From Octopus vulgaris (taxonomy: Eukaryota), in assembly GCA_951406725.2 (NCBI GenBank), contig OX597836.1:32674001-32738000 (forward strand): DNA of 64,000 nt, read 5' to 3'. Within the stretch, counting starts at the first letter, position 1. Every line of letters begins with the position of its first letter. This document shows positions 70 to 51,620 of the stretch, piece after piece. The position numbers and the translations under genes are program-made. A model generated the notes under the pieces. That model was not told the origin of the DNA. It made no database searches and saw only the letters and a list, made by a program, of their open reading frames with translations.

Positions 70-246
70 GTAACATTGATCTTTGAGGATTTTGGTTGCT
101 TCAGCCTCCTTGGGATTCTTTCGTCCCCTGGTGATAGCTTCATCTATTACTCCTTGACATGCTCCTTTCCTATTTAATTAACGTCTCTCTATATATATAT
201 ATATGTATATATGTATGCATGTATATATGTGTCTTTGTGTATATGC

Positions 247-278
<32 letters not shown>

Positions 279-993
279 GAATACGTGTGTTTATATGTGT
301 GGGTGGGAGGCTGTTGTGTGTGTATGTGTGTGTAATATTTCTTCTTAAATATATATGTATATATTTCTGCTCTTGCTCATATTTTATGTATGTGATGGTT
401 TTTTCTTGATGTTGATTGTTTATTTTTCTTTCAACGCTTCGTCTCTCTTTTGGAATCAATGTAAAACAACAAAAGATCTATTTCTTTCTTTTTTTTTTTT
501 TGTTAATTAATTATGTCTGAATTGAAATAACAACAAAAAAAAGGCAACATGACAGGTTCAGTTATTGTAATAAAAATTTTTTAATCAATGAAATATTTGC
601 ACAGGTGTAGCTGTGGGATAAGGAGCTTGCTACTTAACCACACGGTTCTGAGTTCAGTCCTACTGCAAGGCACCTTGTGCAAGTGTCTTCAACTACAGTC
701 CCAGATCGACCAGAGATTTGTGAGAGGAGTTAGTAGACAGAAACTGTAAAAATCTGACCATACATATACACACGCGTGCGCATGCGTGTATGTGTGTAGG
801 CAAATCAAAAATAAAAACACAAACAACAAAAGTCGAAAGGATGTACTAAGTAAATGTATTATGTTGACGCCCTGTTTAAGATGGAAAAAAAATTGGCAGC
901 GGGGTAACATCTCAAGCATGGCTCTTTGTCAGAAAGAGGAAAGAGTAAAGGTCCAGAGAGAAAGAAAAGAATAGTCTGAGAAAAGCACATGTG

Positions 994-21925: not shown

Positions 21926-21996
21926 AAGTGTGTGGTTCAGTGGTAGAATGCTCGCCTGCCATGTGGGCAGCCCAGGTTTGATTCCTGGCCAATGCA
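21926..21996 (+). pseudogene. tRNA-Gly(GCC) pseudogene
   Basis: gtggttcagtggtagaatgctcgcctGCCatgtgggcagcccaggtttgattcctggccaatgca matches the eukaryotic tRNA-Gly-GCC. The 5' acceptor strand is replaced by aagtgt and several CpGs have decayed, including the B-box TTCG to TTTG. Confidence 0.85.
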
Positions 21997-44149: not shown

Positions 44150-45806
44150 TATACACACACAAATATATATATATGTATGTATATGTGTGTGTTTTTGTGT
44201 CTGTGTTTGGCCCCTTTCCGCCACCACTTGACAGCCAATGTTGGTGCTTTTCCTTCCCCGTAACTTAGCAGTTCAGCATAAGAGACCAATAGAATAAGTA
44301 CTAAGCTTACAAAACTAAGTCCGGGTGGAGGGGGCGTTGATTTCTTCACCTAAAAAAAAAACTATTTAAGGCAGTGCTCCAGCATGATCATAGTCAAATG
44401 ACTGAAACAAGTAAAAGAATAAAAGAAAAATTTTTAGTTTTCTGTAATTTACATAATTTTATACAATTTTTTTCCTCTCTTGCCATCTCCCCTTTCTTTT
44501 TCTCCATGATACTAATTTCCTTATAGAAAAAAAGGGATATTTTTCAAAATTTTGAAAAAAAAAACTTTCAGAAATTCCACATAATCTTCACTCTTTTTTC
44601 TAATTTCTTATTAAATTGACGAACAAGGCTTAAATTATTAAATTACTTCATTTAAAGTAATGTTGTTTAATATACCCTACAATATGGTACAGTACCATAC
44701 GGCACCATTCCTTTATAATTGCTTTTTATTTGGCTCCTTATTCCCACCCAGTTATTTTGTTTTTTATTTTATTCTGTTTCATTTTTGTTTGTTTTTACCT
44801 CCATCACAAGAATTAGTTTTTAATTACCAAGTAATGAGTATTAAGGAATTTACATCTTTCATAGTCGTAAGAATGTTTAACTAAATGCAGTGCAATCCAT
44901 TGTGATTAGCTGCCCTTCTTTATCAGTTCATCATCACCGTCATCATCATCATTATCACCATCATCATCTTTCTCCTCCTCCTTATCATCATCAACCTCAT
45001 CATTACCATCATCATCCTTCTCCTCCTCCTCCTCCTCCTCATATTCATCATCATATTCATCACCACCATCATCATCATCATCATCACCATCATCATTAAT
45101 CATCATCTTTCTTCTCACTCTCCTTGTCATCATCAACCTCATCCTTACCATCATCATCATCATCCTTTCTTCTCCTCCTCCTCCTCCTCATCATCATCTT
45201 CATTTCTTCTCCTCCTCCATCTCATCATCATCATCTTCCTTCTCCTCCTCCTCCTCATCATCATCATCGTCATCATCGTTGTCATCATTATCATCTTCAT
45301 TGTCATCATTTTAACATTCATTTTTCTATGCTTTGCAAGGCTCTGGTGCAATTTATTTGAGGCAGATATTCTATGGCCAGATGCCCTCTCTGTCACCAAC
45401 CCTCACCTGTTTCCAAGCAGGATATTTTCCCAATGGCCAGATGTGTTCTCACCGAATATCAAAAATGGTACTGCTTCATTATGTACATTATTTACATTTG
45501 ATGGATATTTGTCCTCATCTTGTTTGTTGTTAACACAGTGTTTCGGCTGATATACCCTCCAGCCTTCATCAGGTGTCTTGGGGAAATTTCGAACCAGGGT
45601 ACTGCTTGTTTGACAGTGAAACTCATTTACAACAATAGTCCATGGATGGAATTTATTAATATTTCAATGCATCGCTACGCACATTTCCACAGATCCTGTA
45701 TCTATTAAGATCATAGCCCATATTCCAGGGATGATTGCAGTACAGTCCATAGTATCCATGGACATCAGGTTGATCATGTTCACACATTCATTTCTGGCCA
45801 GTCATA

Positions 45807-45866
45807 TAGCGACCATTGGTTTCACACCTATAAAGCACTTAGCAGTATAGGCGACTCATCAGGCTC
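45807..45866 (-). ncRNA. Type-I hammerhead ribozyme, family B, intact core
   Basis: Minus strand: GAGC-CUGAUGA-GUCGCCUAUA(13 nt)UAUAGGUGU-GAAACC-AAU-GGUC-GCUA, GUC cleavage triplet. A second copy lies at 46304-46363. Confidence 0.75.
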
Positions 45867-45881
45867 AAAAGTTATTTGCTT

Positions 45882-45941
45882 GAGTCTGATGAGTTGCCTA
45901 TACTGCGAAGCACATTATAGATGCAAAACCAATGGTCACTC
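45882..45941 (+). ncRNA. Family-B hammerhead motif with G12A (GAAA to AAAA)
   Basis: GAGU-CUGAUGA-GUUGCCUAUA...UAUAGAUGC-AAAACC-AAU-GGUC-ACUC. A second copy lies at 46379-46438. Confidence 0.65.
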
Positions 45942-46535
45942 TACGACCAGTCATAACGTCTAACTTCCATATACATTATTTACATTATTTACATTCAATG
46001 GATATTTGTCCTCATCTTGCTTGTTGTTAACACAGTGTTTCGGCTGATATACCCTCCAGCCTTCATCAGGTGTCTTGGGGAAATTTCAAACCAGGGTACT
46101 GCTTGTTTGACAGTGAAACTCATTTACAACAATAGTCCATGGATGGAATTTATTAATATTTCAATGCATCGCTACACACATTTCCACAGATCCTGTATCT
46201 ATTAAGATCATAGCCCATATTCCAGGGATGATTGCAGTACAGTCCATAGTATCCATGGACATCAGGTTGATCATGTTCACACATTCATTTCTGGCCAGTC
46301 ATATAGTGACCGTTGGTTTCACACCTATAAAGCACTGAGCAGTATAGGCGACTCGTCAGGCTCAAAAGCTGTTTGTTTGAGTCTGATGAGTTGCCTATAC
46401 TGCGAAGCACATTATAGATGCAAAACCAACGGTCACTCTACGACCAGTCATAACGTCTAACTTGCATATAACTTAGAATAACTTAGAAAGGTTTTGGCCA
46501 GTATTGGCCCAGGCCATGTCTAACTTAATAGCACC

Positions 46536-46708
46536 ACATTATTTACATTTGACGGATATTTGTCCTCATCTTGCTTGTTGTTAACACAACATTTCGGCTG
46601 ATATACCCTCCAGCCTTCTTCGGGTGTCTTGGGCATATGGCGTAGTGGTTAAGAGTGTGGGCTACAAACCCTAAGATCCCGAGTTCGATTCCAAGCAGTG
46701 TCCTGAAC

Positions 46709-46752
<44 letters not shown>

Positions 46753-46932
46753 CGAAAATACCTTAAGAATGAGAACCCAGGTTCGAAATTTCCCCACGAC
46801 ACCTGAAGAACGCTGGAGGGTATATCAGCTGAAACGTTGTGTTAACAACAAACAAGATGAGGACAAATATCCGTCAAATATAAATAATGTAAATAATGTA
46901 CATAATTCCTCATCTCTTAAATATAGAACTGT
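46536..46932 (+). mobile_element. Short tRNA-headed, hammerhead-bearing element with an upstream inverted partial copy of its 3' end (Penelope-like architecture)
   Basis: Inverted tail at 46536-46633; A box TGGCGTAGTGG at 46638-46648; B box GAGTTCGATTCC at 46681-46692; (AAT)n; HHR at 46798-46843; tail ending catctcttaaatatagaactgt. Confidence 0.7.
46798..46843 (+). ncRNA. Family-A hammerhead motif, stem II closing pair broken
   Basis: gacac-ctgaaga-a-cgctg...cagct-gaaac-gtt-gtgtt. Other mutated family-A copies are on the minus strand at about 46583-46628, 45532-45577 and 46029-46074. Confidence 0.6.
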
Positions 46933-46938
46933 CTTAAC

Positions 46939-47175
46939 ATGATATCACTTCTGCACACACCCTATTTGCCAGATTTAGTACCTGTGGAGTTCCATCTCTT
47001 CTCCAAGAAGAAAATATACCTCAAAGGTTGCTATTTTAATGCCATTGTCAAGATCCAGAGCAAATCACAGAAGATCTACTTGCTTACGGAGAACAACTTC
47101 CAGGTCAGATTCCAAAAGTGGCAGCAATGCTGAGACTAGTGCATTGCTGCACAAGGTGACTTTTTCAAAGGATAT
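46939..47175 (+). mobile_element. Mariner transposase C-terminal relic
   Basis: HTPYLPDLVPVEFHLFSK...LKG..F...FQKWQQC*D*CIAAQGDFFKG resembles the mariner HPPYSPDLAPxDFxLF...CIxxxGDYFE. Confidence 0.75.
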
Positions 47176-51225: not shown

Positions 51226-51620
51226 GCACGTAAAAAGCACCAATCCGATCGTGGCCATTGCCAGCCTTGCCTGGCACCTGTGCCGGTGGCATGTAAAAAG
51301 CACCCACTACACTCATGGAGTGGTTATCATTAGGAAGGGCATCCAGCTGTAGAAACACTGCCAGATCAGACTGGAGCCTGGTGCAGCCTTCTGGCTTCCC
51401 AGATCCCCGGTCGAACCATCCAACCCGTGCTAGCATGGAGAACGGACATTAAATGATGATGATGATGATGAATAACATCGAAAAATACCTTAGGAATGAG
51501 AACCCAGGTTCGAAATTTCCCCCAAGACACCTGATGAAGGCTGGAGAATATATCAGCCGAAACGTTGTGTTAACGACAAACAAGATGAGGACAGATATCG
51601 ATCAAATGTAAATAATGTAA
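51064..51620 (+). mobile_element. Second, 5'-truncated copy of the same element, with a SINE nested in its (AAT)n tract
   Basis: Inverted tail 51064-51165 is joined via ttc to caggcagtgacctga(aat)n. Nested SINE at about 51224-51470; HHR at 51526-51571. Confidence 0.7.
51526..51571 (+). ncRNA. Minimal type-I hammerhead ribozyme, family A, intact core
   Basis: GACAC-CUGAUGA-A-GGCUG(GAGAAUAUAU)CAGCC-GAAAC-GUU-GUGUU: stem I 5 bp, stem II 5 bp, loopless palindromic stem III (AACGUU). Confidence 0.75.

What the first reader, a model, noticed from the sequence alone, without database searches (positions are those of the whole stretch)
45484..46469. 497-bp tandem duplication carrying six hammerhead motifs from two unrelated families
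Seen: each unit has one family-A motif (minus strand, triplet mutated) and a divergent back-to-back pair of family-B motifs. With the adjacent element this gives eight HHR motifs in 1.4 kb. Established: tandem HHR-bounded repeats (retrozymes) yield monomeric and circular RNAs in several animals, including a mollusc. Inference: an antisense transcript cut at both minus-strand GUC sites (45811 and 46308) would release a 497-nt monomer able to circularise, although stem I of the second copy has a mismatch. A plain local duplication is an equally valid explanation.
Basis: partly seen in the sequence, partly recalled or inferred. Interest (0 to 1): 0.72.

Follow-up and report, generated by a model that had tools for sequence, protein, structure and literature searches.

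The report
Duplicated pile of dead retroelement ends
The 497-base doublet is a one-off patchwork of broken ends of common jumping elements that carry hammerhead motifs, most of them mutated; it likely arose by uneven recombination between two copies of an abundant repeat and is unlikely to make a circular RNA, so it is ordinary.

Summary
The duplication (482 of 497 bases identical) and the eight hammerhead motifs are real. The retrozyme reading is not supported. The unit is a patchwork of four unrelated pieces: the end of an abundant tRNA-headed repeat (A), 36 bases of host repeat, a third repeat (S) and a fold-back end of an old Penelope-like element (B). B lies behind Hydra-clade reverse-transcriptase and endonuclease remnants elsewhere; opposite-strand hammerhead pairs are a published trait of such elements. 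The S/B join occurs at three places in the genome: both units and a source-like copy 93 kb away. The middle A copy is a hybrid of the two flanking A copies, the footprint of unequal crossover. Only 1 of 6 motifs in the tandem keeps core, triplet and a 3-pair stem I, and it is predicted to be locked in the fold-back hairpin (about 65 kcal/mol). Family copies decay without sign of selection on the catalytic core. Earlier scan notes already describe family A, and genuine ~490-nt retrozyme families, elsewhere in this genome. Ordinary; low interest.

The parts
45467..45476 (+). Target-site duplication of the solo A1 insertion (second copy 45598-45607)
   Evidence: Sequence; alignment
45477..45597 (-). 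A1: solo 3' fragment of the abundant tRNA-headed hammerhead repeat; minimal type I core intact, cleavage triplet mutated
45598..45633 (+). X: 36 bases of the older host repeat that A1 interrupted (duplicated at 46095-46130); the host repeat is cut off here
45631..45790 (-). S: 5'-truncated copy of a third dispersed family whose majority sequence is hammerhead-like with a ~110-nt stem II insert; this copy lacks the CUGAAGA strand
45791..45873 (-). B- arm, unit 1: type I hammerhead motif of a Hydra-clade Penelope-like end; core, GUC and 3-pair stem I present (the only such motif in the tandem)
45875..45968 (+). B+ arm, unit 1: same family, catalytic G12->A; forms a fold-back hairpin with B- (about 80% complementary)
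45974..46094 (-). A2: hybrid A copy at the duplication junction; left part from the A3 lineage, right part from A1
46128..46287 (-). S, unit 2
46288..46370 (-). B- arm, unit 2: core intact, stem I broken; 46307 and 46312 match the opposite arm (likely hairpin-templated conversion)
46372..46465 (+). B+ arm, unit 2: catalytic G12->A
46466..46537 (-). Y: 72-bp 3' end of a young LINE, identical at 40 of 40 scored places; sits in the B+/A3 join, absent from unit 1 and from L003
46538..46633 (-). A3: inverted, truncated arm of the adjacent tRNA-headed element
46631..46935 (+). tRNA-like head, (AAT)n, A4 hammerhead motif (stem II mismatched) and one-sided tail: full tRNA-headed element
46936..47175 (+). 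Right flank: an unrelated repeat that lacks its upstream part here (transposase-like reading recalled, no Pfam match)

Best explanation
The 497-bp unit is a patchwork of decayed ends of separate repeat families, likely doubled once by unequal crossover between two same-direction copies of an abundant repeat, and its hammerhead motifs are likely inactive passengers. Steps: (1) shown: B is the hammerhead-bearing 3' end of an old Hydra-clade Penelope-like element, inserted as a fold-back pair; A belongs to a tRNA-headed repeat with the same insertion style. (2) inferred: S, B and a tRNA-headed element piled up at a site 93 kb upstream (L003), where the tRNA-headed element has a 12-bp target duplication. 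(3) inferred: that pile was copied into this site at the DNA level, replacing host sequence, next to a solo A copy. (4) inferred from diagnostic bases: A1 and A3, then 497 bp apart in direct orientation, recombined unequally and left the hybrid A2. (5) inferred: a young LINE end then inserted after unit 2, and the hairpin arms converted each other locally.
For: Whole-unit search: 2 full copies (both here) and 1 partial copy among 66 matches (40 of 2903 candidates scored); full pattern scan: S/B join at 3 places only. A, B, S are separately dispersed. 28 of 30 loci (27 of 29 distinct) fetched with an endonuclease remnant have B 0-200 nt downstream on the same strand; these remnants match open 670-681 aa frames (tblastn E down to 1e-54) that carry the DKT, CxCX5C, CxxC and CxH motifs (motifs read by eye against PMC8557442 section 11). 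B's stem III/loop equals that of Hydra-1_oBim, and Penelope-13_HM is listed with motifs on both strands (supplement). A2 shares the B+ tail join with L003, shares a base at 46020 with A3 that 1 of 76 other A copies has, and shares 'AC' with A1. Decay looks neutral: mismatch in core non-CpG sites 72/537 versus 359/3198 outside, in 60 other B arms; among 48 exact core-tail matches G12->A in 15 and the tolerated C11.1->U in 20. Hammerhead fold costs about 65 kcal/mol against the hairpin; helix pair probabilities round to 0 in the read-through RNA. Flanks of L003 and of this site are not homologous; both flanking repeats are cut off and no target duplication was found for the pile.
Against: One CpG position (A-alignment column 102) is shared by A1 and A2 but not A3, against a single clean crossover; it is also in the L003 arm and in 22 of 76 other copies. 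A3 and the L003 inverted arm share no rare derived base and differ more (about 10 in 100) than the S/B parts (about 4 in 100), so their common descent rests on the joins; the A/tRNA join recurs at 17 places. The copied pile ends exactly at the tail end of the tRNA-headed element, which also fits retrotransposition. No contig spans the tandem. B- of unit 1 and of L003 keeps an intact core with a G-C pair at stem I where the family majority has A-U. Folding is prediction only.
Confidence: 0.8

Rival explanations
1. Same patchwork and crossover, but the pile reached this site through RNA: a read-through transcript ending at the tail of the tRNA-headed element was reverse-transcribed by a Penelope-type enzyme and carried about 500 nt of upstream sequence (5' transduction), passing the dead plus-strand B ribozyme.
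For: The copy ends at the element's natural 3' end and starts inside a (TAA)n tail; B+ is G12->A in all three copies.
Against: Donor and copy lie 93 kb apart in 2.8 Gb (chance for a random insertion about 7e-5, my arithmetic); no target duplication and both flanking repeats truncated, whereas A-family insertions here have 10-12 bp duplications.
Confidence: 0.12
2. The tandem is an assembly artefact: two alleles of a single unit joined at the A repeats.
For: In one sample the unit-1-type and unit-2-type contig pieces have similar low depths (17.4 and 22.9) beside 50.6 for a shared piece, which alleles would also give; a haplotype switch in A would also leave a hybrid.
Against: In a second study the two types have depths 40.3 and 65.5 against 69.8 for a unique-looking flank, more than two alleles of one unit allow; a haplotype carrying the doublet fits the first sample too. 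Contig depths are rough.
Confidence: 0.05
3. One reading: a minus-strand transcript is cut at 45811 and 46308 and the 497-nt piece circularises, a newborn retrozyme.
For: Both minus-strand B motifs keep core and GUC; tandem type I motifs with a palindromic stem III can work as dimers (PMC4209133, PMC7229834 passages).
Against: Unit not dispersed; stem I of unit 2 broken; the unit-2 change weakens the dimer helix (-5.6 versus -8.2 kcal/mol); the antisense arm precedes each motif and wins by about 65 kcal/mol; no promoter or host exon was identified.
Confidence: 0.03

Closest known systems
Hydra-clade Penelope-like elements and their fold-back insertions (Craig et al. 2021, PMC8557442; Hydra-1_oBim, Penelope-13_HM)
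   Same: Type I hammerhead at the 3' end behind a C-terminal GIY-YIG-type frame; same stem III/loop as Hydra-1_oBim; inverted 5'-truncated copy; tail at one end only; TA-rich targets.
   Different: Here only ~90-nt stubs remain; stem II is longer (32 nt); B is a separate, old family with no open frame found; it is embedded in a patchwork.
Minimal hammerheads of metazoan PLEs (Cervera and de la Pena 2014, PMC4209133)
   Same: Family A has the minimal stem III, an extra base before stem II and a long stem II; opposite-strand pairs 100-700 bp apart and scattered single motifs are described there.
   Different: Family A carries a tRNA-like head; no autonomous partner was found in my sample.
Metazoan non-LTR retrozymes (PMC7229834; bioRxiv 10.64898/2026.07.22.740005)
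   Same: Tandem units of a few hundred bases with a same-strand type I motif in each unit.
   Different: Retrozymes are families with many genomic copies and one ribozyme per homogeneous unit; this unit is single-locus, composite, contains its own antisense ribozyme arm, and only one unit has a complete motif.
Unequal crossover between interspersed repeats (general knowledge, recalled)
   Same: Duplication bounded by direct repeats with a hybrid repeat at the join.
   Different: Very short scale (about 120-bp homology, 497-bp unit).

Membership tests
Non-LTR retrozyme | Tandem units of 150-450(+) bp each with a type I hammerhead on one strand | tested here: met
   Two units, B- motif in each
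Non-LTR retrozyme | Complete hammerhead in at least two consecutive units | tested here: not met
   Unit 2 stem I has 0 consecutive pairs from the cut; 1 of 6 motifs complete
Non-LTR retrozyme | Unit dispersed as a family in the genome | tested here: not met
   S/B join at 3 places, all within 94 kb; whole unit 2 copies
Non-LTR retrozyme | Ribozyme fold accessible in the transcript | tested here: not met
   Predicted only: about 65 kcal/mol penalty, pair probabilities about 0
Non-LTR retrozyme | Monomeric linear and circular RNAs; self-cleavage | not testable with these tools
   No RNA holder listed; bench test needed
Hydra-clade PLE end (family B) | Hammerhead lies 3' of an RT plus C-terminal endonuclease frame | tested here: met
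   28 of 30 loci; RT and EN remnants match open frames; GIY-YIG Pfam match of L224 is weak (E 0.014, below cut-off)
Hydra-clade PLE end (family B) | DKT, CxCX5C linker, CxxC and CxH around E/N | tested here: met
   Read by eye in related open frames L224/L225; B's own remnants are too decayed to show all of them
Hydra-clade PLE end (family B) | Placement in the Hydra clade by phylogeny with reference elements | not tested
   No tree built
Hydra-clade PLE end (family B) | Inverted 5'-truncated arm and one-sided tail | tested here: met
   All 19 distinct other loci examined show both arms (palindromic query, so biased); tail on one arm
Repeat-mediated unequal crossover | Direct repeats bound the unit and the junction copy is a hybrid | tested here: met
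   one CpG site disagrees
Type I hammerhead (family S) | Core strands, stem I and stem III in register; G10.1-C11.1 closing pair | tested here: inconclusive
   77% of cells paired versus 10-52% when slid, no covariation above shuffles; closing pair not canonical

The most novel reading that the evidence does not exclude
A tRNA-headed, hammerhead-bearing repeat that rides on Penelope-type enzymes carried about 500 nt of upstream DNA, including two other element ends, to a new site (5' transduction by a Penelope-type route), and a later crossover placed two same-strand hammerheads in tandem: a snapshot of how retrozyme-like units can be assembled from debris.
Probability: 0.12. Interest if true: 0.5.

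Novelty: new member of a known kind. Interest (0 to 1): 0.17.

Why it matters
Mainly as a caution: in a genome full of Penelope-derived hammerhead stubs, local recombination can produce tandem 'hammerhead-bounded' units that mimic retrozymes; dispersal of the whole unit and fold accessibility separate the two. It also adds an old Hydra-clade family and shows small-scale repair footprints at hammerhead palindromes. It opens no long-standing question.

Tried and rejected
Rfam at gathering and E-value thresholds: no hammerhead family, only generic hairpin (miRNA) matches below threshold. Segmental duplication between L003 and the window: rejected, flanks share only common repeats. Autonomous partner for A or S: none among 30 GIY-YIG loci or 56 loci around Hydra-type RT matches; this is a small sample. 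A/tRNA join as proof of shared descent: weakened, it recurs at 17 places. No RNA holder listed; one guessed-RNA run covered only the high-copy parts: no evidence either way. No contig spans the tandem. Host gene: none recognised among 58 long frames. Protein search in the wrong frame found nothing; the right frame gave 2 unnamed relatives. Three of 24 rows in alignment A2 were on the wrong strand, so it was not used (redone). First structure string for S was out of register (redone). Arm-identity figures printed at the end were out of register and not used. Pfam found nothing for the right-flank repeat. Paper searches for a tRNA-derived SINE moved by Penelope with a hammerhead (0 papers) and for PLE transduction (1 unrelated listing) found no description; subscription papers and Repbase/Dfam were not searchable.

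Full report
Observation. The tandem is real in the assembly: 45477-46470, period 497, 15 of 497 positions differ. Seven CUGANGA cores lie in 45477-46935 and an eighth A copy has a changed core, so the count of eight holds. They are not chance: 3 descriptor matches against 0.0035 in shuffles. Rfam has no matching hammerhead family. The genome is a 2.8-Gb animal genome; its repeats are octopus-like (match to Hydra-1_oBim below; earlier scan notes say the same).

Anatomy. Each unit is four unrelated pieces. A (minus) is the 3' part of a very abundant tRNA-headed repeat: 2903 candidates, many loci with an inverted truncated arm and a one-sided tail. A1 has its own 10-bp target duplication inside an older host repeat, of which X is the remainder. 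S is a third family (1083 candidates). B is a fourth (900 candidates); all 19 distinct other B loci examined are fold-back pairs, though the query was itself palindromic. The whole unit is not dispersed: two full copies and one partial copy (L003, 93 kb upstream) among 66 matches; a full pattern scan with two mismatches finds the S/B join at exactly these three places.

What B is. A longer fold-back copy (L156) has endonuclease-like coding remnants before the motif. Of 30 loci fetched with that remnant, 28 (27 of 29 distinct) have B directly downstream on the same strand. Longer copies show RT motifs. They match open frames of 605-681 aa in this genome, which carry the DKT, CxCX5C, CxxC and CxH motifs given for the Hydra clade (PMC8557442 section 11). 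The supplement lists Hydra-1_oBim with the same stem III and loop as B, and Penelope-13_HM with an inverted 5' copy and motifs on both strands. PMC4209133 section 5 reports opposite-strand pairs 100-700 bp apart as truncated PLEs. So the back-to-back pair is the known insertion shape. No tree was built.

State of the ribozymes. In the tandem, both A motifs have a mutated triplet, both B+ motifs have G12->A, B- of unit 2 has no stem I, and only B- of unit 1 is complete: 1 of 6. Of 60 other B arms, 12 keep the whole core and 4 also keep three stem I pairs; core sites are no better kept than others (13.4% versus 11.2% mismatch). Among 48 exact matches to the core-tail stretch, G12->A occurs in 15 and the tolerated neighbour change in 20, as plain CpG decay would give. 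That G12 is needed for catalysis is recalled knowledge. In any read-through RNA the arms pair with each other: forcing the hammerhead costs 65-67 kcal/mol, against 9-14 for the arm alone, and its helices have pair probabilities of about 0. On the minus strand the antisense arm is made first.

How the doublet arose. The join between the B+ tail and A is the same in unit 1 and L003. After unit 2 the same join holds a 72-bp end of a young LINE (identical at 40 of 40 scored places; RT domain; the CR1-like label is recalled). Before that insertion A1 and A3 stood 497 bp apart in the same direction. A2 has the A3-type left end and a base shared with A3 that 1 of 76 other copies has, but A1's right end and flank: a hybrid, crossover within about 14 bases. 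One CpG site disagrees. In unit 2, complementary changes at 46312 and 46430 plus 46307 make the arms pair perfectly, likely by hairpin-templated conversion, and this breaks stem I. By the scale in PMC13282606 (distance 0.09 about 25 million years) the duplication would be a few million years old; this is rough.

How the pile came here. At L003 the tRNA-headed element has a 12-bp target duplication and S keeps its microsatellite tail, so L003 looks like the source. Flanks are not homologous. Here both flanking repeats are cut off and no target duplication was found. With the short distance this favours a DNA-level copy during repair; the right end at the element's tail keeps 5' transduction open. 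Shared descent of the A parts rests on joins only.

Independent data. DNA runs hold both unit-specific variants and the B+/A join, so these are not sequencing errors, but no contig spans both units; depths fit a real doublet in one study and are ambiguous in another. RNA data were uninformative.

Comparison. It resembles a retrozyme only in layout; two defining features tested are not met (complete motif in consecutive units, criterion from bioRxiv 10.64898/2026.07.22.740005; dispersal, PMC7229834). Earlier scan notes describe family A as a likely Penelope-moved SINE and genuine ~490-nt retrozyme families elsewhere in this genome; sequence look-ups with B and A stretches and the near look-up returned nothing. 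I had read A this way before seeing them; they are unchecked notes.

Papers seen: PMC8557442 passages, section 11, supplement search and part 2 of 59; PMC4209133 passages and section 5; PMC7229834 passages; bioRxiv 2026.07.22.740005 part 1 of 5 (supplements closed); PMC13282606 part 1 of 3; PMC10886601 three passages, not relevant; search listings. The O. vulgaris repeat library of PMC13282606 was not seen and may already hold these families.

Verdict. Real duplication, real but mostly dead motifs, ordinary origin. Interest 0.17.

Noticed in passing
window 45631-45790 and L064-L080, L157: Family S has a hammerhead-like majority sequence with a 6-8 pair stem I, palindromic stem III and a ~110-nt stem II insert with a non-canonical junction; often in fold-back pairs; no coding partner found.
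   Followed up: partly
window 46538-46935: tRNA-headed repeat with a minimal hammerhead and Penelope-type insertion shape; 14 of 76 other copies keep core and triplet; already noted by the scan elsewhere.
   Followed up: partly
L224:1514-3523 (+), L225:1878-3920 (-), L226, L227: Open 605-681 aa Hydra-type frames of two younger families; L224/L227 end in a type I motif with a 31-nt stem II and a CCGAAGA core strand; no motif seen within 500 nt behind L225/L226.
   Followed up: partly
L142:2164-4506 and others: A Penelope-like family with many open 781-aa RT plus GIY-YIG frames and a long repetitive 3' region; no canonical motif directly behind it by my descriptor.
   Followed up: no
L003:1800-1858: A 56-nt insertion in the B+ motif copied from about 530 bp upstream at the same locus (L003:1219-1263), a templated-repair footprint; the tRNA head there has an internal deletion.
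   Followed up: partly
window 46466-46537; L244-L263: Very young LINE family inserting into TA repeats, 3' ends identical at many places.
   Followed up: partly
window 10024 (-), 51531 (+); neighbours L081-L094: Further type I motifs of at least three other families within 204 kb, with stem II inserts of 12-74 nt; the A copy at 51531 is intact.
   Followed up: no
L068:1485-1998: An independent locus where an S fold-back and a B fold-back lie side by side, suggesting shared target preference.
   Followed up: no
window 21932-21989: Rfam tRNA match (37 bits), partial; probably a SINE head.
   Followed up: no
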